A stretch of DNA of 43,035 bases from a virus (taxonomy: Duplodnaviria > Heunggongvirae > Uroviricota > Caudoviricetes), in the IMG/VR virus record IMGVR_UViG_2541047789_000007, positions 1-43,035 of that record; one strand, written 5' to 3'. The notes under the pieces are model-generated. The model worked only from the letters and a program-made list of their open reading frames with translations. It was not told the origin of the DNA and searched no databases. This document shows positions 18,638 to 36,760 of the stretch, in pieces. A program made the position numbers and the translations under genes. How positions within the stretch are numbered: the stretch's first letter is position 1; each line of letters begins with the position of its first letter.

Positions 18638-19764
18638 CAATCAGGAAACACCGCCAGGGCGAAACGATCAATATAACTTTCACCTACAAAGGAGTTAAAT
18701 GTCGTGAGCCTCTTTCCAATCTGGAAGTAACACCAAAGAACATTAAATACGCCGAGCGCACACTCGGCGAAATCCATAATAAGATCGAAAGGGGAACATT
18801 CATTTATGCGGAATATTTTCCCCGTTCTGCTCGTTTGAAAATTTTTGGTAATGCGGCTGCAGGCAAAACGGTAAAAATGTACCTGGACGAATACCTTGAA
18901 ATCTGCGAAACGAGAAAACTTTCACCCTCTACGATTGGTGGTTATAAAAAATGCCGTAGTGCGTTAGCCTCACTCCACATTTGCTCTGCAAGTGAATTAA
19001 CACCAGCAATCCTGAAAGCGTGGATTCAAAGCCAGAAAACGACCTTAAAAACAATTCGCAACCAGTTATCTTTCCTGCGGTCAGCACTTGATGAAGCCGT
19101 AACCGATGGAGTACTTCAAATTAACCCCGTATCGTTGGTAACTGCTTCGCGCTACCAAAGTGGTAAGTCAGAAGCAGAAAGCAGCTACGTGGTTGATCCG
19201 CTATCACCAGCAGAAGTTGATGTATTACTAGCAGCAGCCGGAAACAAACAATGGGAGAATCTGTTCCGGTTCGCTATACATACAGGCCTGCGTAGTTCTG
19301 AATTATGTGCCCTTCGATGGCGTGATATCGACTTTGTTGGAAAAACAGCCCATGTTCAGAGCGCTAGTGTTGTCGGAGTTATCAAAGGAACAAAGACAAA
19401 AGCCGGTACCCGTAAAGTTGAACTGACTGAAGAAGCAATGTTGGCGCTGATAAATCAGAAGCCATTTACATTCATGAAGGATGCTACTGTCTTTGAAGAT
19501 CCAAAGACCAATAAGCCATGGGCAAGTGCTGATGCAATCAGAAAAAAAGCATGGGTGCCAACATTGCGAAAAGCAGGTATTCGTTACAGAAATCCATATC
19601 AAACTAGGCATACATTCGCCACCCGCCATATCAGCCGGGGAGCAAACCTGTTTTGGCTTGCAGCTCAAATGGGGCATAAAGGACCGGAGATGCTTTTCAG
19701 GCACTATGGCTCATATCTGAAGGAATATGATGGACAAACAAGCTTGAAGAAGATAACAATATAA
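18598..19764 (+). CDS. Tyrosine integrase (lambda-type)
   Basis: 388 aa; catalytic R...HxxR...Y (TGLRSSEL, RHTFATRHI, LFRHYGSY). Confidence 0.9.
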   Translation: MGQTKLLKLPRGVTIRKHRQGETINITFTYKGVKCREPLSNLEVTPKNIKYAERTLGEIHNKIERGTFIYAEYFPRSARLKIFGNAAAGKTVKMYLDEYLEICETRKLSPSTIGGYKKCRSALASLHICSASELTPAILKAWIQSQKTTLKTIRNQLSFLRSALDEAVTDGVLQINPVSLVTASRYQSGKSEAESSYVVDPLSPAEVDVLLAAAGNKQWENLFRFAIHTGLRSSELCALRWRDIDFVGKTAHVQSASVVGVIKGTKTKAGTRKVELTEEAMLALINQKPFTFMKDATVFEDPKTNKPWASADAIRKKAWVPTLRKAGIRYRNPYQTRHTFATRHISRGANLFWLAAQMGHKGPEMLFRHYGSYLKEYDGQTSLKKITI

Positions 19765-19778
19765 TCCAAGCATGAAAC

Positions 19779-19805
19779 TATTGGCCACAATTTGTGGCCA
19801 TTTTA
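19779..19805 (+). terminator. Hairpin terminator after int
   Basis: TGGCCAC-aattt-GTGGCCA followed by TTTTA. Confidence 0.45.
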
Positions 19806-19822
19806 CGGAGCAAGATACAAAC

Positions 19823-21556
19823 ATGGCAAATCAAATTACCAAACTAAAAAATATAAATGTTGTGAAGTTTCGCGGACTGAAAAATATAAACATCGAGTTT
19901 GGTTCTCGCCTAACTGTTATTTGTGGTAAAAATGGCACATCTAAATCCACAATTCTTGGCATTATCGCCCAAATATTTAGCTTTACAAAGGACTTTACCA
20001 AAAACCCTGAGACTGATTTAACACAATATAAAACATTAACAAATGGCAGCTTCAAGTCAGCTTTCAGCGAACATTTTAGGCTTTCAGAACAATTTGATGT
20101 TCCTGGTTCAATGGACGTCAAAATTAGTGTCTATGATGGTGCATCGAACAAACATCTTGAAAAACTAACATTAGGTTTATACAGCTACAGTGACAGAGAT
20201 AAATCAAGGCCTGTAGTCAGGGGAAATGATTCAATACCGGAAAAAAACCAAAGTAGAAACGTTACTCATCCTGTTATTTTTTTAAGCTTAGCACGACTTC
20301 TTCCTATTACATTAAGGACTAATTACTCAACACGGGATGTTCAGTACATCAATGAAAATTCTGATGAAATCAGAATGATGAGTAACCAACTCTTACTAAA
20401 AAACAATGGAAGCTCAGTAACAGCAACAAAAGGTACTATCGATTCAATGGTTGTCCATGGTGACAATTATGATCACCAATCAGTATCTGTTGGTGAAGAT
20501 AATGTTGGACAATTAATCCAAGCAATTTTTTCATTTAAAAGATTGAAGGAAACTTATTCTGATTATCATGGCGGAATATTGTTAATTGATGAAGCCGATG
20601 CAGGTCTTTTCCCTGCTGCACAGTTAGAGCTAATTAATATTCTAACTAAAGCAGCAAAACAATACGATCTGCAAATAATCATGACCTCGCACTCTCCATT
20701 AATAATAGAGGATATCTATAATCGTTCAAAACAAGATAGTGATAGCTTTAAAACAATATATCTTACAGACACATATGGAGATATTAAAACAAAGAATAAT
20801 CTTTCATGGACAGATATCCACGCTGATTTACATGTTGAAACTGTAAAAATTAATGATGACATTTGTCTTCCAAAAGCAAATGTATATTTTGAAGACAAAG
20901 AAGGTTTCGACTTTTTCAAACAATTGATAACAGATCGAAAAATAAATAAAATATTAAATCCATTAGGGAATATAAATATTAGCTGCTCTGCCATGCTTGA
21001 CTTAATGGCAAGAAAAATACCAGAATTTACAGCTAAAAGCTTGATCGTCTTAGACGGTGATGTTGTTCACGACAACAGTGCTAATGCAAAAAAAGCCAAA
21101 AAAGAAAAAAACTTATGTTTGCTTCCAAGCACCTTACCTCCAGACCAAATGATTTTTGAGTTTTTATATAATTTACCACCTGATGATGCATATTGGGAAA
21201 ATAAAAATAAATTTACAAAATCTGTTTTTATGAAAACAGCTAAAGACATAATTACAACGCTAAAGATTGGTAACGCTCCGATTGATTTAAAAATCCTTAT
21301 AGATAATTATAAAAAAGTTAACAAAAATCATGGCGGGAGAGTGAGAAAACTGTTTAAAGATTTTGCACATACGACTCAATTTCAGGACCAAGTCAAAGGA
21401 CGAGTTAAAGATAACCCATATCGATATTGGGTCGAGAAAAATCCTGTGCAATCGGATAGCTTCAAGAATGAACTAATAAAGAGTCTTAAAGTTATTATGA
21501 TAAGTGGACATGGTGTCGATTCTGCTACCATCTCATCATATCTGTCAGATAACTAA
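19823..21556 (+). CDS. OLD-like ABC-type ATPase with C-terminal TOPRIM-like region (candidate anti-phage nuclease)
   Basis: Walker A GKNGTSKST, Walker B LLIDEADAGL, TSHSP; C-terminal acidic motifs YFEDKEG and IVLDGD; AT-rich; start trimmed to MANQITK. Confidence 0.55.
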   Translation: MANQITKLKNINVVKFRGLKNINIEFGSRLTVICGKNGTSKSTILGIIAQIFSFTKDFTKNPETDLTQYKTLTNGSFKSAFSEHFRLSEQFDVPGSMDVKISVYDGASNKHLEKLTLGLYSYSDRDKSRPVVRGNDSIPEKNQSRNVTHPVIFLSLARLLPITLRTNYSTRDVQYINENSDEIRMMSNQLLLKNNGSSVTATKGTIDSMVVHGDNYDHQSVSVGEDNVGQLIQAIFSFKRLKETYSDYHGGILLIDEADAGLFPAAQLELINILTKAAKQYDLQIIMTSHSPLIIEDIYNRSKQDSDSFKTIYLTDTYGDIKTKNNLSWTDIHADLHVETVKINDDICLPKANVYFEDKEGFDFFKQLITDRKINKILNPLGNINISCSAMLDLMARKIPEFTAKSLIVLDGDVVHDNSANAKKAKKEKNLCLLPSTLPPDQMIFEFLYNLPPDDAYWENKNKFTKSVFMKTAKDIITTLKIGNAPIDLKILIDNYKKVNKNHGGRVRKLFKDFAHTTQFQDQVKGRVKDNPYRYWVEKNPVQSDSFKNELIKSLKVIMISGHGVDSATISSYLSDN

Positions 21557-21567
21557 TTGATTAAAAA

Positions 21568-21601
21568 GGGTTTTATGTGATGGCCATAAAGCCCTTTTTT
21601 T
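21568..21601 (+). terminator. Rho-independent terminator between OLD-like gene and Dam-like gene
   Basis: GGGTTTTATG-tgatggc-CATAAAGCCC followed by T7. Confidence 0.6.
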
Positions 21602-21635
21602 GATATACTTTAGATCTGACATTTAGAGGTATCAT

Positions 21636-22535
21636 ATGCGTTTTAACACCCCACTTCGCTATCCTGGCGGTAAAGGCAAGCTTGCAAATTTCATGCTTCG
21701 GATTATTGAAGAAAATAATCTTTCGCCTATACATTATGCCGAACCATATGCTGGGGGTGCTGGTTTAGCATTGAAACTGTTACATCTAAATGCAGCTGAA
21801 AAAATCATCCTTAATGATATTAATATTTCTGTTTATGCTTTTTGGCACAGTGTATTAAATCATGCAGATCAATTATGTTCTTTAATTGAAAGAACAGAAG
21901 TTACAATGGATGAATGGTTTAGGCAGAAAGATATAATTAATAATCCTAAAGACCATGATCTTTTAACAATTGGTTTCTCAACCTTTTTTCTCAATAGAAC
22001 AAATCGTTCTGGAATATTAAAAGGTGGTGTAATTGGCGGTAAAAATCAAGAAGGGAAATGGAAGCTTGACGCTCGCTATAATAAGAGTGATTTGATTTCT
22101 CGAATCCATAGAATATCAGAAAATCGTCACAGAATAGATTTATATAACATGGATGCAATTGATTTCATAAAAAAAATAGTTATTCAATTGCCACAAAACT
22201 CATTAACATATTTGGATCCACCTTATTACATAAAAGGTAAAGGCTTATATATCAACCATTATGATCATGATGATCATGTTAGGGTTGCAAAAGTCGTACA
22301 GAATAATATTAAAACGCCTTGGATTGTTTCTTACGATAACACTCCTGAGATCCAAGCTATGTATAAGACATCCTCATTAGTATATGGAATAAACTACAGT
22401 GCTCAAGATCGGTACAAAGGATCTGAGGTAATGTTCTTCAGTGAACGATTGAAAATCTTTAAAACAGATGATCCAACTAAGGTAAAAGCGCCTGTATTTA
22501 AAAGAGGATGTGTTGACGACCACATCCAGACATAA
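21636..22535 (+). CDS. Dam-family N6-adenine DNA methyltransferase (D12 class)
   Basis: Motifs RYPGGKGK, AEPYAGGAGL (FxGxG) and LDPPYY; 299 aa; AT-rich. Confidence 0.8.
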   Translation: MRFNTPLRYPGGKGKLANFMLRIIEENNLSPIHYAEPYAGGAGLALKLLHLNAAEKIILNDINISVYAFWHSVLNHADQLCSLIERTEVTMDEWFRQKDIINNPKDHDLLTIGFSTFFLNRTNRSGILKGGVIGGKNQEGKWKLDARYNKSDLISRIHRISENRHRIDLYNMDAIDFIKKIVIQLPQNSLTYLDPPYYIKGKGLYINHYDHDDHVRVAKVVQNNIKTPWIVSYDNTPEIQAMYKTSSLVYGINYSAQDRYKGSEVMFFSERLKIFKTDDPTKVKAPVFKRGCVDDHIQT

Positions 22536-24126: not shown

Positions 24127-24721
24127 ATCCAAATTCACATAAAAATTACTACAACTGACCATTTCTTTTTTTTCTGCTTACAGTGTCTTCGAAAGCCTGC
24201 TTCACACTTTCAACATTTGTAGACCACGATTTTAAAATAGTATCGGCTAAGGCTTCCTGACTGGTTGTTGGCATTCGATATTTTTTATCGTGCTTATTAA
24301 TATTCAATTTTGACTCCTCTATAAATAGCCACAAAGGTTCAATGAGAACATTCACCGCTGCAGCTTTACTTCTCCATCCTTCTTCAGGAGACAAATCATT
24401 TATAAGTTCCACCAGTTTTTCCTGAATAGGTCGATACATTTCAGATTTTTTTATCCCACCTTTCCTTCCTGATCTATTCCTGATAGATAAAAGTTTAGTT
24501 TGCTTATCTACTGAGATCTTATACCAAACCATCCCCATGCTTTTATCAAATAACTCAGATGCTTTTTTAAATGCTTCAAATGCAACATCCTCGTTGTCTG
24601 ATATAACTAATTCACCCCATTTATAGCACTTCAGTGCATACTTAAGGTGAAATTTAAAAAGCTCATCCATAGAGATATATTCAGGGATAATGACAGCAAC
24701 ATTATCGGTAATGACTCCAAC

Positions 24722-25225
24722 TTATTGATAGTGTTTTATGTTCAGATAATGCCCGATGACTTTGTCATGCAGCTCCACCGATTTTGAAAACGACAGCGAC
24801 TTCCGTCCCAGCCGTGCCAGGTGCTGCCTCAGATTCAGGTTATGCCGCTCAATTCGCTGCGTATATCGCTTGCTGATTACGTGCAGCTTTCCCTTCAGGC
24901 GGGATTCATACAGCGGCCAGCCATCCGTCATCCATATCACCACGTCAAAGGGTGACAGCAGGCTCATAAGACGCCCCAGCGTCGCCATAGTGCGTTCACC
25001 GAATACGTGCGCAACAACCGTCTTCCGGAGACTGTCATACGCGTAAAACAGCCAGCGCTGGCGCGATTTAGCCCCGACATAGCCCCACTGTTCGTCCATT
25101 TCCGCGCAGACGATGACGTCACTGCCCGGCTGTATGCGCGAGGTTACCGACTGCGGCCTGAGTTTTTTAAGTGACGTAAAATCGTGTTGAGGCCAACGCC
25201 CATAATGCGGGCAGTTGCCCGGCAT
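24722..25225 (-). CDS. insB: IS1 transposase InsB
   Basis: 167-aa ORF starting [16 protein letters not shown]. Confidence 0.9.
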
Positions 25226-25419
25226 CCAACGCCATTCATGGCCATATCAATGATTTTCTGGTGCGTACCGGGTTGAGAAGCGGTGTAAGTGAACTGCAGT
25301 TGCCATGTTTTACGGCAGTGAGAGCAGAGATAGCGCTGATGTCCGGCGGTGCTTTTGCCGTTACGCACCACCCCGTCAGTAGCTGAACAGGAGGGACAGC
25401 TGATAGAAACAGAAGCCAC
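25144..25419 (-). CDS. insA: IS1 InsA
   Basis: 91-aa ORF starting [32 protein letters not shown]. Confidence 0.9.
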
Positions 25420-25932
25420 TGGAGCACCTCAAAAACACCATCATACACTAAATCAGTAAGTTGGCAGCATCACCAACATTATCTCTCAGAAGTTCTGCCT
25501 CCAATGTACTCCAATAACGTTCAATAAGCTTAGCTAACTCGATGCTTTTCTCATTTGATGGAAAGTCCTTATGAGAGTCAGTGTACCTATGCTCCTTCAA
25601 ATAAGATGATGAATACAATAATATTCCGGGACCAAACTTCTTGGAGTTCCAGACCCGCTCTTTCATCATAGTCAACTCAGCCTGCATATCTGTATGCTTT
25701 TCATCCAGAACTTGGGCGTACATGCTCCATTCACAGTCCTTCATCTCACTGGAGAGAGCACTGCATTTTCGACTAATTTCTTCACTAAAAATTTTAAGAG
25801 AAAACATTTATCTTCACAATATCAACAAGTTAAACCCGTTAAAAATAAACCTTTGCTAGCCGTATTTTTTCGAAGAATCCTTGCAGCTATTCTTTGCTGG
25901 AACCAAACTGAGCTAACAAGAGGCAAACTAGT

Positions 25933-28767: not shown

Positions 28768-29059
28768 GTTGTAGCAGCCTTAAGAGATCAGGGCGCATAT
28801 TTTTGGGGCTAATAAAGGGTAACTTGTTGCTGTTCCAGCTATGTTTGCTAGAAAGTATGTGGTTAAGGTCAATCATGATCCCCAGAGGTGCCTTCGCATA
28901 CATGTCAAATGTGAAATTCGCACGAGTAATTCAAAAAAGAACATGTTTTCATCGTGTTGAAACATTACGATAGAAGTATCAAGATTATTCTGAACGTTAC
29001 GAAACACAGTTGGAATTTCCACTTATCGTAATAGGATATTGGCAAAATGGAGTCGCTGA

Positions 29060-32000
29060 ATGAGTGTGTTGAGTTGGGCAATAGACCTATGCGGGAAGAT
29101 GGAAGCGTGGCTGGTTAAGCGCCAAGCAAAAGATCAACTACAGAGCGCAGAGCAGGGGTTGAGTCTGATGGAAGAAGAATTAGGTGATCGCTATGACACC
29201 TTAGCGCCGAAAACCATCAATGATGCCAGTATGCGAGAGTATTTCATTGCCCTGAAATACGCCTTGTCTCAGAAAGACGTAAGAAACATTGCCATTACAG
29301 GGAGCTATGGCGCAGGGAAAAGTACGGTTATTTCATCATTTATGAAATATCACTGCGATGATAAATACATCAATGTATCTCTTGCGGGATTCGATATGAC
29401 GGAAAATGAAACAACCGTCAGCCCAACTCACCAAGAGGTTGAACTCAGTATCCTGCAACAAATTCTTTATAAAGAGAATAGAGAGAAGCTTCCCGACTCA
29501 AGGATAGACAGAATAATCGACAGGGGCCCTCACTATGTCAGAGGAACTTATCGAGCCTTACTTAAAGTCATTACCCCCATCGCGGTAGCCGCATTTATTA
29601 TCTATTTCAAAACAATTGCAGAGTTTCTAAGCCTTCCGCCATCCTGGATCGAGGTATTTAATGCACACTACATCATAAAAGGCTTTATATTAGTTTCGCT
29701 GGCTTTTACCGCGCTGTACTTTATAACTGCCAGCGCATCTCGAATCGGTATTTTTGATAAGAAACTCAAGCTGAGCAAGATCGCGCTTTTAAGCGGGGAT
29801 GTTGAGGCAAGCGAGCAAGAGACACCATCCTTATTGAATAATTGCCTTGACGAGATCGTGTATTTTTTCACCAAGCTGAAATATAAGGTAGTCATCTTTG
29901 AAGATCTTGACAGGTTAGGGACGCCTGAGATTTTCGTTAAGTTGCGTGAAATTAACAAAATAGTTAACAATAATATTGTCGATGGCAGTCCGGTCAGGTT
30001 TGTTTATGCGGTAAGAGATGACCTATTCCTGGGCGCTGATGCCAGAACTAAATTCTTTGATTTCATTCTCCCTGTCATTCCATTTATGGACAGCAGAAAC
30101 GCGTTTACCTTATTAAAAAGGAAAATGTTACTCAATACGCATAACGATACATATTTGAAAGACATTTCTGTACATATAAATGATATGCGCAGCCTGCAGA
30201 ATTTGGTCAATGAGTACCATGTATTCAGTAATATCGTTGATAACGGCAACGACAAAATCAAACTGTTATCGCTGGTATTTTATAAAAATATCTATGCATT
30301 AGACTACTACCTTACCGATAAGAAAACAGGGGTTTTATATTCATTTATTCGCGACTATCGCACCCGAAAACTTCACCATAATCATTTTGACTCTCTGGAA
30401 ACAAAACTGGATCTTTTACAGGCCGAAATAGAACATCTTAATTATGAGCCTATGTATGACCATAGGGGAATTAGAGAGGAAATAGTTTGTCGATATATTC
30501 CTAAGATACTCTGGGATGGCGTTCATTTTGGTACGGGAAATGGATACAGTAATTTTTATCCTTTAGGAACTTTGGCTTTAATTGATGATGAAAATAGTTT
30601 TTTGGAGTTTTTATCGCAAAAGGAAAACTTATATATAGGCTACTTTGTTAGTCATCAGGGGCATTCACTTTCACTTTTTGATAGAGCATTAAGAGAACAA
30701 CTAAAAGAAGAATACCTGAAACGAAAAACGAAAATGGGTAAAGATAAAAACTCGGCTTTTAGTGAACTGCAAATAAAAATAAAGAAAATTAAAGAGTCAA
30801 TAAAATTAAAAAACACCCTTTCGCTGCGAGAACTTACGCTAATAATCGGGCGTGAGAAATTTGCAGAGATTGCGCAGGGGTATCTTGAGGCGATGGAGGG
30901 GCATGACTTCGTTTCTAAGCAGCAGCTCCATGCTTTGTGTGCTGATATGCGCAATGGCGGTTTAGACGCCTTATATCTGCTGCTGTCCGATGGTCTGGTG
31001 ATGCAAGACTTCATGGCCTACCGCTCTATTTTCCATGAAGGATCGATGACCGTAAATGATAACGACTTTTTGAAAGCCGTCGGTCAGGATCTGAGCTACG
31101 CAACCTCAAACGGTGAATATTTTATCGATGACGAGAACAGAGTCATCAGCGAATTGGTTGAACATAACCGTATTTATGCCGATGGCGCGCTTCATCATCA
31201 ACTGGTGACTCATTTGATTGATAACGCGGACGAACATCTGGCGGGCATGTTCGCTTCGCTATTCAGTCAGTCTGATGAACACATCCTTGCTGTTTTCTCT
31301 GAGCTTTATACACGATTTGGCAAACCCGAAACCTTCGATAAGTTAATCGTTACCGCGCTGCAAAAAAATGGTTATCTTGACAGAATGGTTGCCGTTCTCG
31401 CGGGACAGCTGGGTGAAAAATTCACCAACGATATTGCTATCAGCGTGATAGCCTGCGTATCACCTGCACATGCGCAAGATAAACTGCAATACCGCCAGCT
31501 TATTCATTCGCTGGGGTGCCGTATCATCTCTCAGCTCACCGAAGAAAATCAGGAAGCGTTTATGCGTCATGTACAACAGGCGGATGCACGCTATGACGAG
31601 CTGTTCGAACCAATAACGCCAACGGAGCGGTATTGCCTACAGTTTACTGCACAAAACAGCCTTTATCAGTTAACTCGACACAATGTTGGCATTGCCGTTT
31701 CATGTCTTATTGACAACATAACGCCTGAAGAGGCGGAAAGGAAACCCTGGACACTCGCCTATGAACATGAACTCAGCACGGTTTCTGACTACTTCAGTCA
31801 AAACATTGATATATTCGTCAGGGATGTGTTTATCTACTCCGCTGAGGATGGCGACTGTATCCGCTACGTTCTGACCCGTACCTCTCTAAGCGACGATTCC
31901 AAAGGCGATGTCGTCAGAAACATGACCTTCTCGTTTTCCGACCTGTCCGGGATATTGGCTAAAGCAGTATTTACCGAAGACCAGCTAACGATTTCCTATC

Positions 32001-32899
32001 ACGACCTGTTTTACCGATATGACCGCGTCGCACCGGGATGGGGGGCGCTGATAGACTATATCTGTGAAGATTGCGACATGGAGATACTGACGGCTTATGT
32101 GACAAAGCATGCGCCTGTATTGGGGCAATCATCCCCGGAAGTTTATGATGGCGACCGCTATGACCTGCTGTATATGAAAATTATCTGCAATGATGACCTA
32201 GAAGAACAGGTTTATCAGAGCCTAGTTGCACCGATTGAGATTAACATGCGGGAAATTGATGAGCGGCTTAGCGCGCGTCATTTCTGCACCCTGGTTGCCA
32301 TGCAGAAGCTGCCTCTCGACGCGGATGTGTATGAAAAAATTGCGGCTCAATATGCGGTTCAAGATGAAAATATAAGTGATGCCTTCGTCTATTGGTTCAG
32401 CCAGTACAAAAGTGAGTTTTTGACGCAGCCCGAATTCTATCTAAGAAAAGAAAAAGACGCGCGCTTCTTTAATGTCATGCTCACAAAAATCATAACCTAC
32501 GCGCACTTTACCGTGCAAGAGAGAGCGGACCTGGTGTCGCTATTCATTGATTATTTCATTGCGTCTGATATCGCTGACCTTAATTACCCTCATGATGTCC
32601 TGCTGCAGGTGTTTAACAGTACCAATAATGAAGAATTCAAGGTCATGCTGTTTACGCGATTTATTGTGACAGGCCTGAATAAACATCAACTGGCCGGGCT
32701 ATGTCATCAACTGGGCGAAGACGAATTGAGTAATGTATTCATCAATCGAACCCAGGCAACAATTGCTGTTATAAACAGGGAACGCGTGATATCAATTCTT
32801 GAACATCTGCAAGCAGTACGCATCATAAGAGGTTTTCAGGAGCGTGAAAGTGGGAAAATCTCCGTCTTTATCGAACCCGATCTGGAGGATAAAGATTAG
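29060..32899 (+). CDS. Giant KAP/YobI-type P-loop NTPase with transmembrane insertion (1279 aa)
   Basis: Walker A ITGSYGAGKST, then two hydrophobic helices, then Walker B KVVIFEDLDRLG; about 900-aa C-terminal region without recognisable motifs. Confidence 0.6.
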   Translation: MSVLSWAIDLCGKMEAWLVKRQAKDQLQSAEQGLSLMEEELGDRYDTLAPKTINDASMREYFIALKYALSQKDVRNIAITGSYGAGKSTVISSFMKYHCDDKYINVSLAGFDMTENETTVSPTHQEVELSILQQILYKENREKLPDSRIDRIIDRGPHYVRGTYRALLKVITPIAVAAFIIYFKTIAEFLSLPPSWIEVFNAHYIIKGFILVSLAFTALYFITASASRIGIFDKKLKLSKIALLSGDVEASEQETPSLLNNCLDEIVYFFTKLKYKVVIFEDLDRLGTPEIFVKLREINKIVNNNIVDGSPVRFVYAVRDDLFLGADARTKFFDFILPVIPFMDSRNAFTLLKRKMLLNTHNDTYLKDISVHINDMRSLQNLVNEYHVFSNIVDNGNDKIKLLSLVFYKNIYALDYYLTDKKTGVLYSFIRDYRTRKLHHNHFDSLETKLDLLQAEIEHLNYEPMYDHRGIREEIVCRYIPKILWDGVHFGTGNGYSNFYPLGTLALIDDENSFLEFLSQKENLYIGYFVSHQGHSLSLFDRALREQLKEEYLKRKTKMGKDKNSAFSELQIKIKKIKESIKLKNTLSLRELTLIIGREKFAEIAQGYLEAMEGHDFVSKQQLHALCADMRNGGLDALYLLLSDGLVMQDFMAYRSIFHEGSMTVNDNDFLKAVGQDLSYATSNGEYFIDDENRVISELVEHNRIYADGALHHQLVTHLIDNADEHLAGMFASLFSQSDEHILAVFSELYTRFGKPETFDKLIVTALQKNGYLDRMVAVLAGQLGEKFTNDIAISVIACVSPAHAQDKLQYRQLIHSLGCRIISQLTEENQEAFMRHVQQADARYDELFEPITPTERYCLQFTAQNSLYQLTRHNVGIAVSCLIDNITPEEAERKPWTLAYEHELSTVSDYFSQNIDIFVRDVFIYSAEDGDCIRYVLTRTSLSDDSKGDVVRNMTFSFSDLSGILAKAVFTEDQLTISYHDLFYRYDRVAPGWGALIDYICEDCDMEILTAYVTKHAPVLGQSSPEVYDGDRYDLLYMKIICNDDLEEQVYQSLVAPIEINMREIDERLSARHFCTLVAMQKLPLDADVYEKIAAQYAVQDENISDAFVYWFSQYKSEFLTQPEFYLRKEKDARFFNVMLTKIITYAHFTVQERADLVSLFIDYFIASDIADLNYPHDVLLQVFNSTNNEEFKVMLFTRFIVTGLNKHQLAGLCHQLGEDELSNVFINRTQATIAVINRERVISILEHLQAVRIIRGFQERESGKISVFIEPDLEDKD

Positions 32900-32925
32900 C
32901 GATTTAGCCTTTTCAGGCCGGGACC

Positions 32926-32949
32926 GGCAGGTCTCTGCCTGTTTTTGTT
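32926..32949 (+). terminator. Candidate terminator after NTPase gene
   Basis: GGCAG-gtct-CTGCC followed by TGTTTTTGTT. Confidence 0.4.
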
Positions 32950-33369: not shown

Positions 33370-34470
33370 TTATTTGATGTTGGACTCAAAAATCTCAACG
33401 AGTTCTTTGACTTTTTTCATGCAATCAATATTAACACACCTATATTTATCATTATATTTTATAAGTGACACTAAATATGAGCGATAACCTTTTAATTTAT
33501 TCTGTAATTGATCATCAGCATACTTAGAGTAAAAATCAAATTTATTCCCATACCTTAGGGTAAACTTCCTATGGTTTAAATAGAATACGCTCTCCATTAT
33601 ATACATTGGGGATTTTTGTTTTTTGAGCAATGCGGAAACTTTTTTCAACGGTTTAAGTTTTTTATCAGATAGCCTGATGTTACCAACAGGCTTCTCTTTG
33701 TACACATGAAAAAAGTCTTTCTTTCTTTTCCTGTTCTGTACTACATAACCGTTAAGCGATATAGTGTTCTCAGTCGCTCTCCTTTTCTTTTTTTTCAACT
33801 TGAGAGAAAGTATAGAGACGAAGATAGAAATATCCTTTTCAAATTGCTCAGAATGCAGGTACTTACTGTTATCACAAGAAAAAAGCATATCATCTGCATA
33901 ACGTGAGTAGATAATCCCTTTATCTTCACACAATTTTTGAATAAGAATATCTACTCTTCTGAATATTATGTTTGATATTACAGGGGAGGATGAAAATCCA
34001 ATAGGTAACACTTCTTTCCCACGAAAGTCTTTGTCAATATAAGTGTCACTAACCTTGTGAGTAACAGAAATATATGCAATATCTAGAGCTGAGTATTTAT
34101 TTCCATTCTTTTCATTGTTGAAGTGCTGAGCGAGTAGGCTTTTTACTTCATGCGTAGGTATTGAATGGAAGAATTTTTTGATATCCAATCGTAGGAAGTA
34201 ATATCCTTGGATATGGGGCCTTAGAAAGTCGTAATAAGATTTACCTTGAACAAAGCCGCATGCGGATGAGTTAATGGGACTTTTATCTAGAACAAACTTA
34301 GTTATTCTATCATTTATACGCTTGTGTTCAGAGTCTCTAGAAATTTCAAAAAAGTTGTCGCAACCAACTTTAAACTCTCTGACGGCAGGAGTGAAATCAT
34401 TTAGAAGATCTTCATTGCCTTTAAGAATCGCTTTCTTAAAAAAGTCATCGCTAATATTATTTTTTATCAT
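33370..34470 (-). CDS. Reverse transcriptase (retron-like / defence-associated RT)
   Basis: RT motifs: motif A LRLDIKKFFHSI, motif B LPIGFSSSPVISNIIF, motif C YADD; 366 aa; AT-rich. Confidence 0.8.
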   Translation of the reverse strand: MIKNNISDDFFKKAILKGNEDLLNDFTPAVREFKVGCDNFFEISRDSEHKRINDRITKFVLDKSPINSSACGFVQGKSYYDFLRPHIQGYYFLRLDIKKFFHSIPTHEVKSLLAQHFNNEKNGNKYSALDIAYISVTHKVSDTYIDKDFRGKEVLPIGFSSSPVISNIIFRRVDILIQKLCEDKGIIYSRYADDMLFSCDNSKYLHSEQFEKDISIFVSILSLKLKKKKRRATENTISLNGYVVQNRKRKKDFFHVYKEKPVGNIRLSDKKLKPLKKVSALLKKQKSPMYIMESVFYLNHRKFTLRYGNKFDFYSKYADDQLQNKLKGYRSYLVSLIKYNDKYRCVNIDCMKKVKELVEIFESNIK

Positions 34471-34473
34471 AGA

Positions 34474-34673
34474 GCTTCAACCCGATACAAAAGAACACCA
34501 TTACACCGTAGGTGTGTACTTCGACGCATACTAATCAGAGTGACTAGTTTAGCAGTCATTAGGACTATGCCCAAAGCTAAAAGAAGCTGGACTCCCTCAA
34601 GCAAAGAGCGGGAGAGGCAAGCTCTCAGATACTTGTCGAAACTCATATCTCCCCTCTACTATCGGGTTGAAGC
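34474..34673 (-). ncRNA. Candidate retron msr-msd non-coding RNA bracketed by 14-bp inverted repeats (a1/a2-like)
   Basis: Perfect inverted repeat GCTTCAACCCGATA (34474-34487) / TATCGGGTTGAAGC (34660-34673) enclosing about 170 nt with internal hairpins; lies between OLD gene stop and RT start. Confidence 0.4.
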
Positions 34674-36760
34674 ATACGAATGATATCATAAAACTCGGGG
34701 AAATAAACTTTAAATACTGTCCCAAATGGTTGATTTTTAGCTAAAGACTCTTTTTCAACGTATCCGACGGCATAATTTAGGAAGCTTGTAGTCCATCCAT
34801 CGGTTTTATCAAGGTATTTGTTGTGTACAGTGTTCTCTTCTAATAATTTCATTAGCATTTTTGCATGCTTGGAAGTGTATCGCAACTTGCCGCTTACCTT
34901 TCTCTTATTATTTAAAGTTTGTTTGTATGTTTCAACATTGAAGTGGCTATAGTCAGTTAATGCCATTGACTTTCCATTAAAAATGACTCTAATGTAATCA
35001 ATGAGCATATCCTCTGTAACATACTTGCTTCGTTTTATACGCTTCAATGTAGAATCAAAATTAGAATTATGTTCACTGTCTAACCATCCATATACAATTT
35101 TTGAGCTATGTTTCTGGATTAAACAACCTTCTAATGTTGTTCTATTTAGATAAATATTCTGATCAAGCAACCTGCTTTTAACAGCAGTAAATACCGACTC
35201 AAAGTCAGACTCATCTAGAAAAGTTTGAGTTGTATTATTTACTTTTACTTCTTTATTTATAACGGATAACAACGTCTCAATATTTTCTCGTTTTGTCTTG
35301 TACTTCTTGCTAAAACCCAATTTGTATTTATTAAGCTCTGATTTTAAAGTATCTGGTTTAAAGTTAAAATAGCTACCGTTTTTTTCTAGTTTTATAGATA
35401 AACTACGAGGCTCACCTTTAATTGATATTGCTTTGTCTGCATCGAATAAGAATAAGTATGGTATAGTAGAGTTTGAGTATGATGGATTAACTCGCTCACC
35501 AACGACATTGCTACTACATTTATAAACATCTATATTTCTTAAATGAGGGAAATGTTCAGTCATCTTCATGTTTCCAAAAGCTTCCAACTCACTTTCACCC
35601 TCTACAAATAGGATAAAGTCGCTAAAAAACAATCTTGCTTCATTGTCACTAAAAATATTTATAAAGCTCTCGTTGTCATAAGTGGAATTTAATATGCTAA
35701 TCGTAGTTCTAGCATCAACTTTCTTCTGAAAACAATAAACACGTTGTTTTTGCCTGAACTTTTTAATTATCTCTTTTACTATATTCGGCGAATGAGTTGT
35801 TATAAATACTTTAGGCCTAGTAACTCGATCATCTTTTTTTTCATTATAATTGTAACTAGTAAATATATCTTGGACTAGAACCTCGTTCATTTTAGGGTGT
35901 AGACCTAGCTCTGGTTCATCAATAAAAACAAATGGTGTTATATATTCTCTTCTTGAAATTGTAATTAGTATCCTAAGAAAGGTTTTTATGAAATGAAATG
36001 AATTTGTTCCATCTGAGTGAAACTTTAAATCATTTTCGTCTATCTCAAACCGATAACCTTTTAATCCAGCCTTAATATAGCTCAACACCTTTTCTTTCTG
36101 AGAACTTGGCTTCGTAGATATCGTTCTATTTAAGTCTGAAATATAATTCCTATAAGAATTATCACCACTCGAATTAATTGAATTATCAAAAAAATCAATT
36201 ACAGATTGGTCATCAATTTTAGACAGATTGAAAGACTTCACTCTTGATATAAGATCCCACAAACTGTCCCATTCATGTAAATCCATATGTCTAGGTTCAA
36301 CATGGAAAAATGGAAATAGATAAAGAATAAGGTTTAAAGTTTGTTTGTCTTTAGTTGACCACTTAACTTTACCATCGCTGTATATGTTCAGTGTCAAAGT
36401 ATAAGTGGTGTAATCATTATCGTAGCGCGTTAATGCAAATATGCTTCGTTTATGGAGAGGAACCAATTTTCGGATGATAAAATCAAAATACTTATTTTTA
36501 GGTTGATTCCTGGCTATCCTATAAATTCTGGTCATATCATAAGTTACTGATATAGAACCTTTATACGAATAATTAGAGTTTAGCTTTGGCGGTAACTCTT
36601 CTTTGCCTTCTAGTTTATTGTAGAAGAATTTAAGAACTTTAAGTAAGTTAGACTTTCCAACGTTATTGCGACCGACAATGCAGTTTAAGTCGTTTAAGTT
36701 ATCAACATTTAGCTCATCGAATGATAACAAGTTGGTGATTTTTATAGCCTGTACAGTCAT
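34643..36760 (-). CDS. OLD-family ATPase/TOPRIM nuclease (705 aa)
   Basis: Walker A GRNNVGKSN, Walker B FVFIDEPELGLHP, TTHSP, TOPRIM LFVEGESELEAF and LFLFDADKA; AT-rich. Confidence 0.8.
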   Translation of the reverse strand: MTVQAIKITNLLSFDELNVDNLNDLNCIVGRNNVGKSNLLKVLKFFYNKLEGKEELPPKLNSNYSYKGSISVTYDMTRIYRIARNQPKNKYFDFIIRKLVPLHKRSIFALTRYDNDYTTYTLTLNIYSDGKVKWSTKDKQTLNLILYLFPFFHVEPRHMDLHEWDSLWDLISRVKSFNLSKIDDQSVIDFFDNSINSSGDNSYRNYISDLNRTISTKPSSQKEKVLSYIKAGLKGYRFEIDENDLKFHSDGTNSFHFIKTFLRILITISRREYITPFVFIDEPELGLHPKMNEVLVQDIFTSYNYNEKKDDRVTRPKVFITTHSPNIVKEIIKKFRQKQRVYCFQKKVDARTTISILNSTYDNESFINIFSDNEARLFFSDFILFVEGESELEAFGNMKMTEHFPHLRNIDVYKCSSNVVGERVNPSYSNSTIPYLFLFDADKAISIKGEPRSLSIKLEKNGSYFNFKPDTLKSELNKYKLGFSKKYKTKRENIETLLSVINKEVKVNNTTQTFLDESDFESVFTAVKSRLLDQNIYLNRTTLEGCLIQKHSSKIVYGWLDSEHNSNFDSTLKRIKRSKYVTEDMLIDYIRVIFNGKSMALTDYSHFNVETYKQTLNNKRKVSGKLRYTSKHAKMLMKLLEENTVHNKYLDKTDGWTTSFLNYAVGYVEKESLAKNQPFGTVFKVYFPEFYDIIRMLQPDSRGEI

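What the first reader, a model, noticed from the sequence alone, without database searches (positions are those of the whole stretch)
29060..32899. Compositional break inside the NTPase gene suggests a mosaic origin
By eye, the 5' portion (about 29060-30850) is AT-rich with long A/T runs, while from about 30850 onward the gene is markedly more GC-rich. A shift within one intact reading frame suggests fusion of modules with different histories: an AT-rich NTPase/TM module joined to a GC-normal C-terminal module.
Basis: seen in the sequence. Interest (0 to 1): 0.4.

Follow-up and report, generated by a model that had tools for sequence, protein, structure and literature searches.

The report
Tmn defence gene with swappable AT-rich arm
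The gene is a known anti-phage defence protein (Tmn); its GC step is real, but it marks a short, hypervariable, recombining "proximal arm" segment in the middle of the gene, not a fusion of an AT-rich front half to a GC-normal back half.

Summary
[quoted passage not shown] It lies in an integrase-bearing island beside retron Eco8.

The GC step near 30,815 is real (0/1000 codon shuffles). The profile has three parts, not two:
- 29060-30104: GC 0.43
- 30105-30814: GC 0.32
- 30815-32899: GC 0.46

The AT-rich block has two causes.
- Codons 349-430, the end of the NTPase domain, are AT-rich because of their amino acids. GC3 there is as expected.
- Codons 435-585 have GC3 0.25 against 0.46 expected from their amino acids (z about -5). 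In an AlphaFold2 model this block matches Tmn's proximal arm: a helical hairpin with an alpha/beta tip.

The arm tip (nt 30502-30701) is hypervariable. There are 16 types among 36 proteins of at least 78% overall identity. Synonymous divergence there is about 1, against 0.2-0.4 in the flanks, and arm and backbone phylogenies disagree.

Homologues are full-length down to below 20% identity. The only "separate halves" found are frameshifted full-length genes. The N/C fusion reading is therefore not supported. The real mosaic is allelic exchange of an internal cassette. Why the arm has low GC3 is unresolved.

The parts
29060..32899 (+). [quoted passage not shown]
   Evidence: The ORF is intact. 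Pfam PF20693 YobI-ATPase, E 1.7e-98. PADLOC Tmn, E 2.3e-175, aa 37-1100. It is 100% identical to a gene annotated 'hypothetical protein' in E. coli A0 34/86. A 99.9% identical copy in strain MEI3O-23 is annotated 'YobI family P-loop NTPase'.
29049..29052 (+). GGAG Shine-Dalgarno-like motif, 7 nt upstream of the ATG
   Evidence: Read directly from the sequence.
29240..30340 (+). [quoted passage not shown]
   Evidence: Pfam match covers 1-363 of 363 profile positions.
29300..29326 (+). Walker A motif GSYGAGKST (aa 81-89)
   Evidence: Motif search. G81, Y83, G84, A85, G86, K87, S88 and T89 are invariant in alignment A1.
29552..29737 (+). Two hydrophobic helices (about aa 165-187 and 204-226) inserted between Walker A and Walker B
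   Evidence: Kyte-Doolittle 19-residue windows above 1.6 occur only here. The AF2 model is helical in this stretch.
29888..29911 (+). Walker B region VVIFEDLD (aa 277-284)
   Evidence: Sequence. F280, E281, D282, L283 and D284 are invariant.
30104..30349 (+). AT-rich because of its amino acids: the conserved helical end of the NTPase domain (aa 349-430)
   Evidence: GC1+2 is 0.256. FYMINK residues make up 44% and GARP 6%. GC3 is 0.415 against 0.443 expected (z -0.6). GC is also low in nearly all Enterobacterales homologues.
30362..30814 (+). Proximal arm (aa 435-585): helical hairpin plus alpha/beta tip, and a codon-usage island of low GC3
   Evidence: GC3 is 0.25-0.26 against 0.46 expected from the amino acids (z -5.2 to -5.5). 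GC4 is 0.32 against 0.50 and 0.59 in the flanking segments. AF2 model: helix 439-462, four strands and helices in 478-557, return helix 562-586. This matches the 'proximal arm' described in PMC13001434.
30502..30701 (+). Hypervariable core of the arm tip (aa 481-548)
   Evidence: The same ~200-nt patch recurs in eight of the ten allele pairs compared. Identity is 56-70% inside it against 88-96% outside. There are 16 types among 36 close proteins. dS is 0.8-1.04 and dN 0.23-0.38, against flank dS 0.2-0.4 and dN about 0.03.
30815..32896 (+). Distal arm: all-helical solenoid-like C-terminal region (aa 586-1279)
   Evidence: The AF2 model is almost entirely helical with pLDDT mostly 85-95. Foldseek gives weak hits to HEAT/ARM solenoids such as CAND1, importins and karyopherins. 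GC is 0.463 and GC3 0.50.
32920..32943 (+). Terminator-like hairpin plus T-run, 21 nt after the stop codon
   Evidence: Pattern scan only.

Best explanation
The gene encodes a clade-I Tmn, a YobI/KAP-type P-loop NTPase. Two transmembrane helices are inserted in the NTPase domain. A 'proximal arm' and a long alpha-solenoid 'distal arm' follow it. Published work shows that Tmn is a single-gene anti-phage sensor-effector.

The GC profile is not a two-part fusion scar. It is a roughly uniform gene (GC 0.43-0.46, below the ~0.51 E. coli genome average [my own knowledge]; window flanks 0.50-0.56) with a 710-nt AT-rich block. That block has two causes.
1. Codons 349-430 are AT-rich because the conserved end of the NTPase domain is rich in N, K, I, Y and F.
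2. Codons 435-585, the proximal arm, use markedly more A/T-ending synonymous codons than the rest of the gene.

The arm is also the fastest-diverging part of the gene. Its alpha/beta tip exists in many divergent types. These types sit on nearly identical backbones and have been exchanged between backbones by homologous recombination.

Inferred rather than shown:
- The arm tip is kept diverse by the arms race with phages, through trigger recognition, escape from phage anti-Tmn proteins, or both.
- Arm lineages coalesce much deeper than the backbone, which recombination homogenises.
- The arm has therefore kept, or drifted to, an AT-rich synonymous composition while the backbone sits nearer host composition.
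For: Identity of the gene:
- Pfam YobI-ATPase, E 1.7e-98, and PADLOC Tmn, E 2.3e-175.
- Walker A, Walker B and two hydrophobic helices between them.
- AF2 model with a hairpin plus alpha/beta arm and a helical solenoid.
- Defence-island context: integrase, AlpA, YfjI, retron Eco8.
- Published Tmn architecture and function (PMC13001434; PMC11846954).

Composition:
- Three-segment model, 0 of 200 shuffles.
- B1 is explained by its amino acids (z -0.6).
- Arm GC3 is 0.25 against 0.46 expected (z about -5), and GC4 is 0.32 against 0.50 and 0.59.
- The boundaries at codons 435 and 585 coincide with the structural arm at 439-586.
- All 13 alleles of the clade share the deficit, with z from -3.9 to -6.1, whatever their tip type.
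- Control genes in the window show no such pattern.

Cassette behaviour:
- Windowed protein identity falls to 0.51-0.67 at aa 480-540, against about 0.9 elsewhere.
- Between-type tip identity is 31-68% with flanks 78-95% identical.
- dS in the tip is 3-4 times that of the flanks.
- L004 is 96-97% identical to L041 in the flanks but 79% in the arm. Its arm is 95% identical to L003, whose flanks are 91-92% identical to it.
- PHI-type test for recombination: 0 of 1000 permutations.
- The patch boundaries recur at 30502-30701.
Against: - The cause of the low GC3 is not established. No donor lineage for the arm was found. In no pair among 115 homologues is the tip more similar than the flanks by more than 0.08 in identity.
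- Recent synonymous singletons in the arm run W->S 20 against S->W 3. This argues against ongoing AT-ward pressure and fits a historical cause better, but the counts are small.
- NG86 dS can be inflated where dN is high.
- The published co-IP data indicate that the proximal arm alone is not sufficient for RIIB binding. A role of the tip in specificity is therefore inference.
- No experiment was done on this allele.
Confidence: 0.75

Rival explanations
1. One reading: the gene arose by fusion of an AT-rich NTPase/TM module of one origin with a GC-normal C-terminal module of another origin.
For: - There is a significant GC step at 30,815.
- The distal arm is slightly richer in GC than the N part (GC4 0.59 against 0.50).
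- Recent synonymous changes differ between them. The N part has W->S 41 and S->W 46. The distal arm has 28 and 99 (Fisher p 1.8e-4). So the two ends may not share one compositional history.
- One allele, L047, has a C part closer to the L003 group than its N part is.
Against: - The NTPase/TM part up to codon 348 has GC 0.43, close to the C part at 0.46.
- Homologues are full-length at every distance sampled.
- The C half is always found downstream of the NTPase. The only split cases are frameshifts.
- The published solenoid architecture is conserved across all ten Tmn clades (PMC13001434).
- Any N/C difference is therefore at most allelic recombination between full-length Tmn genes, not a domain fusion.
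Confidence: 0.05
2. The AT-rich block is purely a consequence of protein composition (lysine/asparagine/isoleucine-rich coiled coil) and says nothing about history.
For: - This is true for codons 349-430. GC1+2 is 0.256 and GC3 is as expected.
- The arm contains K/E-rich helices.
Against: - For codons 435-585, GC3 expected from the amino acids and the gene's own codon usage is 0.46. The observed value is 0.25-0.26 (z -5.2 to -5.5).
- Four-fold degenerate sites give 0.32 against 0.50 and 0.59.
Confidence: 0.1
3. The low GC3 of the arm is functional. It might provide slow or unstructured translation at a domain junction, an H-NS nucleation site, or an internal promoter or start that gives a separate distal-arm product.
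For: - The deficit covers the conserved helices as well as the variable tip (GC3 0.28, 0.23 and 0.28).
- It is shared by all 13 clade alleles. It is weaker but in the same direction in every other Enterobacterales clade sampled, with z from -1.1 to -3.3. Something could be maintaining it.
Against: - There is no excess of promoter-like sites: 10 found against 12.2 +/- 3.3 expected.
- The antisense ORF 30655-31014 is broken in all other alleles.
- The deficit is near zero outside Enterobacterales (z -1.5 to +1.8), where low overall GC leaves little room.
- Recent changes in the arm are mostly W->S.
- Nothing was tested directly.
Confidence: 0.12
4. The hypervariable patch is produced by a diversity-generating retroelement, given the reverse transcriptase gene next door.
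For: - An RT gene lies 470 nt downstream on the opposite strand (33370-34470).
Against: - That RT and its neighbour are annotated as retron Eco8 components.
- No template repeat of the arm exists anywhere in the window. The longest chance matches are 16 nt or less.
- Differences between alleles are not adenine-specific. A sites differ at 0.30-0.34 and C and G sites at 0.41-0.65.
- The same tip types recur in alleles at unrelated loci and on a plasmid.
Confidence: 0.01

Closest known systems
[quoted passage not shown] 2026, PMC13001434)
   Same: - Same family by profile, E 2.3e-175.
- Same order of parts: NTPase with two inserted TM helices, a proximal arm (coiled coil plus alpha/beta domain), and a distal alpha-solenoid.
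- Length of 1279 aa fits clades Ia/Ib, which have a median of about 1270 aa and are restricted to Enterobacteriaceae.
- The only invariant arm residues here, F514, Y552 and R555, have the same pattern as the essential F506 and Y541/R544 of Tmn-25.
- Single gene, with no conserved operon.
   Different: - This allele has not been tested.
- Residue numbering shows it is not Tmn-25.
- The preprint places variability in 'the C-terminal region' in general and calls the proximal alpha/beta domain variable in length and shape. A term search of its main text found no mention of GC content or of a hypervariable region, and 'recombination' occurs only in another context.
KAP family P-loop NTPases (Aravind et al. 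2004; Pfam PF07693)
   Same: - P-loop NTPase with transmembrane helices inserted inside the NTPase domain.
- Weak Pfam KAP_NTPase match at 17.3 bits.
   Different: - The match is below the KAP gathering score of 20 bits.
- The specific family is YobI-ATPase (PF20693).
Antiviral STAND NTPases (Avs) and other defence proteins with variable repeat or solenoid sensor domains
   Same: - NTPase core plus a helical-repeat sensor.
- Sequence variation is concentrated in the sensor parts.
- Arms-race logic (PMC13001434 introduction).
   Different: - Tmn is membrane-embedded, is reported as a decamer, and has no separate effector domain.
- No STAND family profile matched here.

Membership tests
Tmn (YobI-family transmembrane NTPase defence system) | [quoted passage not shown] | tested here: met
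   PF20693 full-length match, E 1.7e-98. GSYGAGKST at aa 81-89 and VVIFEDLD at aa 277-284, both with invariant residues in the alignment.
Tmn (YobI-family transmembrane NTPase defence system) | Two transmembrane helices embedded within the NTPase domain | tested here: met
   The only hydrophobic 19-residue windows above 1.6 lie at about aa 165-187 and 204-226, between Walker A and Walker B. The AF2 model is helical there. No dedicated TM predictor was available.
Tmn (YobI-family transmembrane NTPase defence system) | Proximal arm: conserved coiled coil bearing a variable alpha/beta domain | tested here: met
   AF2 model: helix 439-462, four strands plus helices in 478-557, helix 562-586, with pLDDT about 74-88. 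The tip is hypervariable and the helices are conserved. Description in PMC13001434.
Tmn (YobI-family transmembrane NTPase defence system) | Distal arm: long alpha-solenoid (ARM/HEAT-like) C-terminal region | tested here: met
   The model is all-helical for aa ~590-1230 with pLDDT 85-95. The best PDB fold hits are HEAT/ARM solenoids, but TM-scores are only about 0.1, so the resemblance is generic.
Tmn (YobI-family transmembrane NTPase defence system) | Whole-protein profile match to the curated defence-system model | tested here: met
   PADLOC PDLC02220 Tmn, E 2.3e-175, 583.6 bits, aa 37-1100.
Tmn (YobI-family transmembrane NTPase defence system) | Protects cells against phage; decameric membrane complex | not testable with these tools
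   Shown for other alleles only (PMC13001434, PMC11846954).
   the halves are always together. The two apparent stand-alone C halves are frameshift splits of colinear full-length genes.
Diversity-generating retroelement target | Template repeat near an RT and adenine-specific differences in the variable region | tested here: not met
   No repeat of the arm in the window, and a substitution spectrum that is not A-specific.

The most novel reading that the evidence does not exclude
In clade-I Tmn, the proximal-arm tip (about 68 aa, nt 30502-30701 here) is a naturally modular, recombining specificity cassette. There are at least 16 types on near-identical backbones. The cassette may determine which phage triggers are sensed, which phage anti-Tmn inhibitors are evaded, or which protomers can co-assemble. 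Its distinct codon usage would mark a gene pool or evolutionary regime separate from the rest of the gene. If so, phage range could be re-programmed by swapping 200 nt.
Probability: 0.3. Interest if true: 0.5.

Novelty: new member of a known kind. Interest (0 to 1): 0.3.

Why it matters
The gene itself is an ordinary, already recognisable member of a known defence family, and the proposed domain fusion did not happen.

The useful residue concerns how Tmn evolves. The compositional anomaly pinpoints the proximal arm as a discrete unit, at both structural and evolutionary level. It has very high allelic diversity and shows exchange between backbones. A term search of the main text of the current Tmn preprint found no mention of GC content or of a hypervariable region, and 'recombination' occurs only in another context.

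This gives a concrete design for experiments. Swap nt 30502-30701, or the whole arm 30362-30814, between alleles with 93-97% identical backbones. Then test whether the tip sets trigger range or sensitivity to anti-Tmn proteins.

It is also a cautionary example. An intragenic GC step can combine an amino-acid effect and a codon-usage effect, and only the second says anything about history.

Tried and rejected
1. **Two-module fusion.** Rejected on full-length homologues and on the exhaustive C-half search.
2. **Pure amino-acid explanation.** Holds for codons 349-430 only and is rejected for the arm.
3. **DGR.** There is no template repeat and no A-bias.
4. **Internal promoter.** There is no excess of sigma-70-like sites. 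The scan is crude.
5. **Antisense gene 30655-31014.** It is interrupted by stops in all 12 other alleles.
6. **Import of the arm from a more distant Tmn clade.** In no pair among 115 proteins does tip identity exceed flank identity by more than 0.08. No donor was identified.
7. **Structured RNA or tRNA in the region.** Rfam gathering scan and ARAGORN both found nothing in the whole window.
8. **Solved structures by sequence.** No PDB hit. Foldseek gave only generic solenoid hits with TM about 0.1.
9. **Full-length structure prediction.** Residues 41-1240 were modelled instead.
10. **Polarised singleton spectrum, to infer the direction of compositional change.** It gave significant heterogeneity between regions. 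It rests on majority-as-ancestral parsimony, on few events in the arm, and on recombining sequences. I treat it as exploratory only.
Full report
**1. What is there**

The ORF 29060-32899 (+) is intact and encodes 1279 aa. A GGAG motif sits 7 nt upstream of the ATG. A terminator-like hairpin lies 21 nt after the stop.

Identification of the protein:
- It matches Pfam YobI-ATPase (PF20693) over the full profile at aa 61-427, E 1.7e-98.
- It matches the PADLOC model for the Tmn defence system over aa 37-1100, E 2.3e-175.
- It has Walker A (GSYGAGKST, aa 81-89) and Walker B (VVIFEDLD, aa 277-284).
- The only two strongly hydrophobic helices, at about aa 165-187 and 204-226, lie between these motifs. 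This is the KAP/YobI hallmark.

Genomic setting:
- The gene is 100% identical to one in E. coli A0 34/86.
- In that strain it lies in an island next to ssrA that carries an integrase, AlpA, YfjI and an inovirus Gp2-family protein. The gene is followed by retron Eco8 RT and effector.
- Alleles about 91% identical sit at another chromosomal site in other E. coli and on a conjugative Salmonella plasmid.

**2. Checking the observation**

The GC profile is not a two-level step.

| Segment (nt) | GC |
|---|---|
| 29060-30104 | 0.428 |
| 30105-30814 | 0.32 |
| 30815-32899 | 0.463 |

- Codon-shuffle tests give 0 of 1000 for the best single change-point (nt 30,815) and 0 of 200 for the three-segment model.
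- The claim that the whole 5' portion is AT-rich is wrong. The first 1,045 nt hold Walker A, both TM helices and Walker B. They differ from the 3' part by only 0.035 in GC.
- The A/T runs are concentrated in 30105-30814, at 14 per kb against 1.9 and 3.4 per kb.
- Eight other genes of the window show no comparable third-position heterogeneity under the same test.

**3. Dissecting the AT-rich block**

The block has two unrelated causes.

Codons 349-430:
- This is the conserved helical end of the NTPase domain.
- GC1+2 is 0.256, with 44% FYMINK and 6% GARP residues.
- GC3 is 0.415 against 0.443 expected from the amino acids and the gene's own codon usage (z -0.6). This is a protein-composition effect.
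- It is also seen in most Enterobacterales homologues.

Codons 435-585:
- GC1+2 is only slightly lower than elsewhere.
- GC3 is 0.25-0.26 against 0.46 expected (z -5.2 to -5.5).
- GC at four-fold sites is 0.32, against 0.50 and 0.59 in the flanking segments.
- The edges are sharp. GC3 is 0.42 for codons 390-434, then 0.28, 0.23 and 0.28 for 435-477, 478-556 and 557-585, then 0.53 for 586-640.

**4. What codons 435-585 encode**

I modelled residues 41-1240 with AlphaFold2 from an 84-sequence alignment. Mean pLDDT was 80.9. The model shows:
- a long helix at 439-462;
- a small alpha/beta unit in 478-557, with four strands and two to three helices;
- a long return helix at 562-586;
- an almost purely helical region to the C-terminus, with pLDDT 85-95.

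Foldseek against the PDB returns only weak, generic HEAT/ARM-solenoid matches such as CAND1 and karyopherins, with TM about 0.1. No solved relative was found by sequence.

This layout matches the published description of Tmn (Wu et al. 2026, bioRxiv, PMC13001434):
- an NTPase hub with two TM helices;
- a 'distal arm' alpha-solenoid.

The three invariant arm residues in my alignment are F514, Y552 and R555. They have the same pattern as the essential F506 and Y541/R544 of Tmn-25.

The compositional island (codons 435-585) therefore coincides with one structural module, the proximal arm (439-586).

**5. The arm has its own evolutionary history**

Variation among close homologues:
- Among proteins at least 60% identical overall, windowed identity is about 0.9 along the protein. 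It falls to 0.51-0.67 at aa 480-540.
- Single-linkage clustering of aa 481-548 gives 16 types among 36 proteins of at least 78% overall identity.
- Between types, tip identity is 31-68% while flanks are 78-95% identical.
- The query's own type occurs on backbones down to 83% flank identity.

DNA-level evidence from 13 alleles:
- The divergent patch has recurrent boundaries at window nt 30502-30701. Identity is 58-70% inside and 88-96% outside.
- Against alleles with a different tip type, synonymous divergence in codons 478-556 is 0.8-1.04, against 0.2-0.4 in the flanks.
- dN is 0.23-0.38 against about 0.03, and omega is 0.28-0.45 against 0.1-0.2.
- Alleles with the same tip type show no such excess.

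Incongruence between arm and backbone:
- L004 is 96-97% identical to L041 in both flanks but 79% in the arm.
- The L004 arm is 95% identical to that of L003, whose flanks are 91-92% identical to L004.
- A PHI-type compatibility test gives 0 of 1000 permutations.

Elevated dS together with incongruence indicates exchange of old, divergent arm lineages between backbones. The alternative wording is balanced polymorphism with recombination that homogenises the flanks. Rapid amino-acid change alone does not explain both. One caveat is that NG86 dS can be inflated where dN is high.

**6. The fusion hypothesis**

- The top 120 homologues are 1064-1288 aa with 83-100% coverage, down to 39% identity. 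The two below 90% coverage are partial or cut entries.
- Of 26 intact genomic loci below 45% identity, most encode ORFs of 1,100-1,320 aa. They include Clostridia, Bacilli, Sphingobacterium and Chitinispirillales. A few are shorter, at 730-1,030 aa.
- An exhaustive HMMER search of 1.84 billion representatives with aa 600-1279 found 68 proteins.
  - Most long hits carry the match at about 575-1270 of proteins of about 1,190-1,300 aa. A few of 745-1,110 aa carry it nearer their start or are otherwise shorter.
  - The rest are fragments.
- The two ~650-aa apparent stand-alone C halves are each preceded by a YobI-ATPase ORF.
  - tblastn shows single frameshifts in colinear full-length genes.
  - One of these shifts lies in a poly-A run of the arm's return helix.

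The N+C architecture is therefore ancient. The halves do not occur separately in anything I could find.

**7. Why the arm has low GC3**

This is unresolved. The facts are as follows.
- All 13 clade alleles share the deficit, with z from -3.9 to -6.1, whatever their tip type.
- Other Enterobacterales clades show a weaker deficit in the same direction, with z from -1.1 to -3.3.
- Low-GC Firmicutes and other distant homologues show none, but they have little room for one.
- Tmn genes are lower in GC than their flanks at all but two of the loci tabulated.
- No donor was found. The tip is at most marginally (under 0.08) more similar than the flanks in any pair of 115 proteins.
- Recent synonymous singletons differ by region:
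  - N part: W->S 41, S->W 46.
  - Distal arm: W->S 28, S->W 99.
  - Proximal arm: W->S 20, S->W 3.
  - Fisher p is 1.8e-4 and 4e-7.
  - Taken at face value, the regions are not at a common compositional equilibrium, and the arm is not currently being pushed towards AT.
  - This analysis is exploratory, because it uses majority-as-ancestral parsimony, recombining sequences and few events.

My preferred reading is inference. Arm lineages are much older than the recombination-homogenised backbone, and they retain the AT-rich synonymous composition typical of the family. The backbone of this clade sits closer to host composition.

A functional role for the AT-rich codons cannot be excluded. I found no promoter excess, no conserved antisense ORF and no Rfam family.

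A DGR origin is excluded. The arm has no template repeat in the window and the substitution spectrum is not A-specific.

**8. How it most likely works**

Function of the protein, taken from the literature and not tested here:
- Tmn assembles as a membrane decamer.
- Its cytosolic arms engage a phage trigger, which is RIIB for Tmn-25.
- ATP turnover rises, Mg2+ is exported and the cell plasmolyses, which blocks phage spread (PMC13001434).
- Phages counter Tmn with anti-Tmn proteins and trigger mutations (PMC11846954).

Against that background, the hypervariable, exchangeable arm tip is best read as a product of the arms race. It could act in trigger range, in inhibitor escape, or in protomer-protomer compatibility, since the proximal arms contact each other in the dimer.

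The preprint's co-IP data show that the proximal arm alone is insufficient for RIIB binding. The tip's role in specificity is therefore plausible but unproven.

**9. Comparison and novelty**

The gene passes every sequence- and model-level defining feature of Tmn that I could test. Only activity and oligomeric state remain untested. It is a new, uncharacterised allele of a known kind.

The incremental observation is that the proximal arm is at once a codon-usage island, a hypervariable cassette with at least 16 types, and a unit of recombination. A term search of the main text of the Tmn preprint found no mention of GC content or of a hypervariable region, and 'recombination' occurs only in another context. 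The preprint speaks of variability in the C-terminal region generally.

**10. Verdict**

The step is real but the extent is wrong.
The gene is mosaic, but not by an N/C fusion.
- Interest is modest. It is an ordinary defence gene, with a tidy and experimentally exploitable evolutionary feature.

Noticed in passing
window 1-22640: A lambdoid prophage, about 98% identical over 80-89% of its length to prophages in E. coli H1 and other strains. It carries terminase, portal, lysis genes, yfdN-R-like genes and an integrase at 18598-19764. It abuts the Tmn island. Colinearity with strain A0 34/86 begins at window 22614, which corresponds to the last 27 nt of ssrA in that strain. This looks like two elements integrated in tandem at the ssrA site. 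No tmRNA gene lies in the window itself.
   Followed up: partly
window 19772-22535: Downstream of the prophage integrase lie a 594-aa AAA-family ATPase and a 299-aa DNA adenine methylase, as annotated in the matching H1 prophage. The stretch is very AT-rich (GC 0.31-0.34). It could be prophage-borne defence or moron cargo. It was not examined.
   Followed up: no
window 33370-36760 (- strand): Retron Eco8 reverse transcriptase (33370-34470) and effector endonuclease (34643-36760) lie immediately downstream of Tmn, as annotated in the identical A0 34/86 region. GC is 0.30-0.36. Rfam at gathering threshold found no retron ncRNA family, and the msr/msd was not located.
   Followed up: partly
window 24683-25497: This short stretch between the island integrase and the AlpA/YfjI genes is not colinear with strain A0 34/86. 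The window has small minus-strand ORFs at 24149-24670, 24722-25225 and 25448-25807, where A0 34/86 has one 293-aa hypothetical protein. The window therefore comes from a different strain, with variable cargo at this spot.
   Followed up: no
L050 about 2020-2030; L051 about 4020-4040: Two Tmn homologues are called as split N and C genes. Both are single frameshifts in otherwise colinear genes. One shift lies in a poly-A run of the arm's return helix, at the conserved EEYxxRK motif. The other lies in a short tandem duplication. The AT-rich arm may be frameshift-prone, or these may be assembly errors.
   Followed up: partly
L004 3001-6840: A 94% identical Tmn allele sits in an assembly labelled Pseudomonas lundensis, while all other close alleles are from Enterobacterales. 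This is either recent cross-family transfer or contamination or mislabelling of the assembly.
   Followed up: no
37 loci from genome contigs (L004-L040): Tmn-family genes are lower in GC than their 3-kb flanks at all but two of the loci tabulated, by up to 17 points. This holds across Gammaproteobacteria, Clostridia, Bacilli and Bacteroidota.
   Followed up: partly
window 29060-32896, 11 clade alleles: Recent synonymous singletons are balanced in the N part (W->S 41, S->W 46). They are strongly S->W in the distal arm (28 against 99) across nearly all lineages, and W->S in the proximal arm (20 against 3). The N part and the distal arm may therefore not share one compositional regime. This is unexplained.
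   Followed up: partly
window 30655-31014 (- strand): A 119-aa antisense ORF spans the GC step. It is interrupted by 1-3 stop codons in all 12 other alleles, so it is not a gene.
   Followed up: yes
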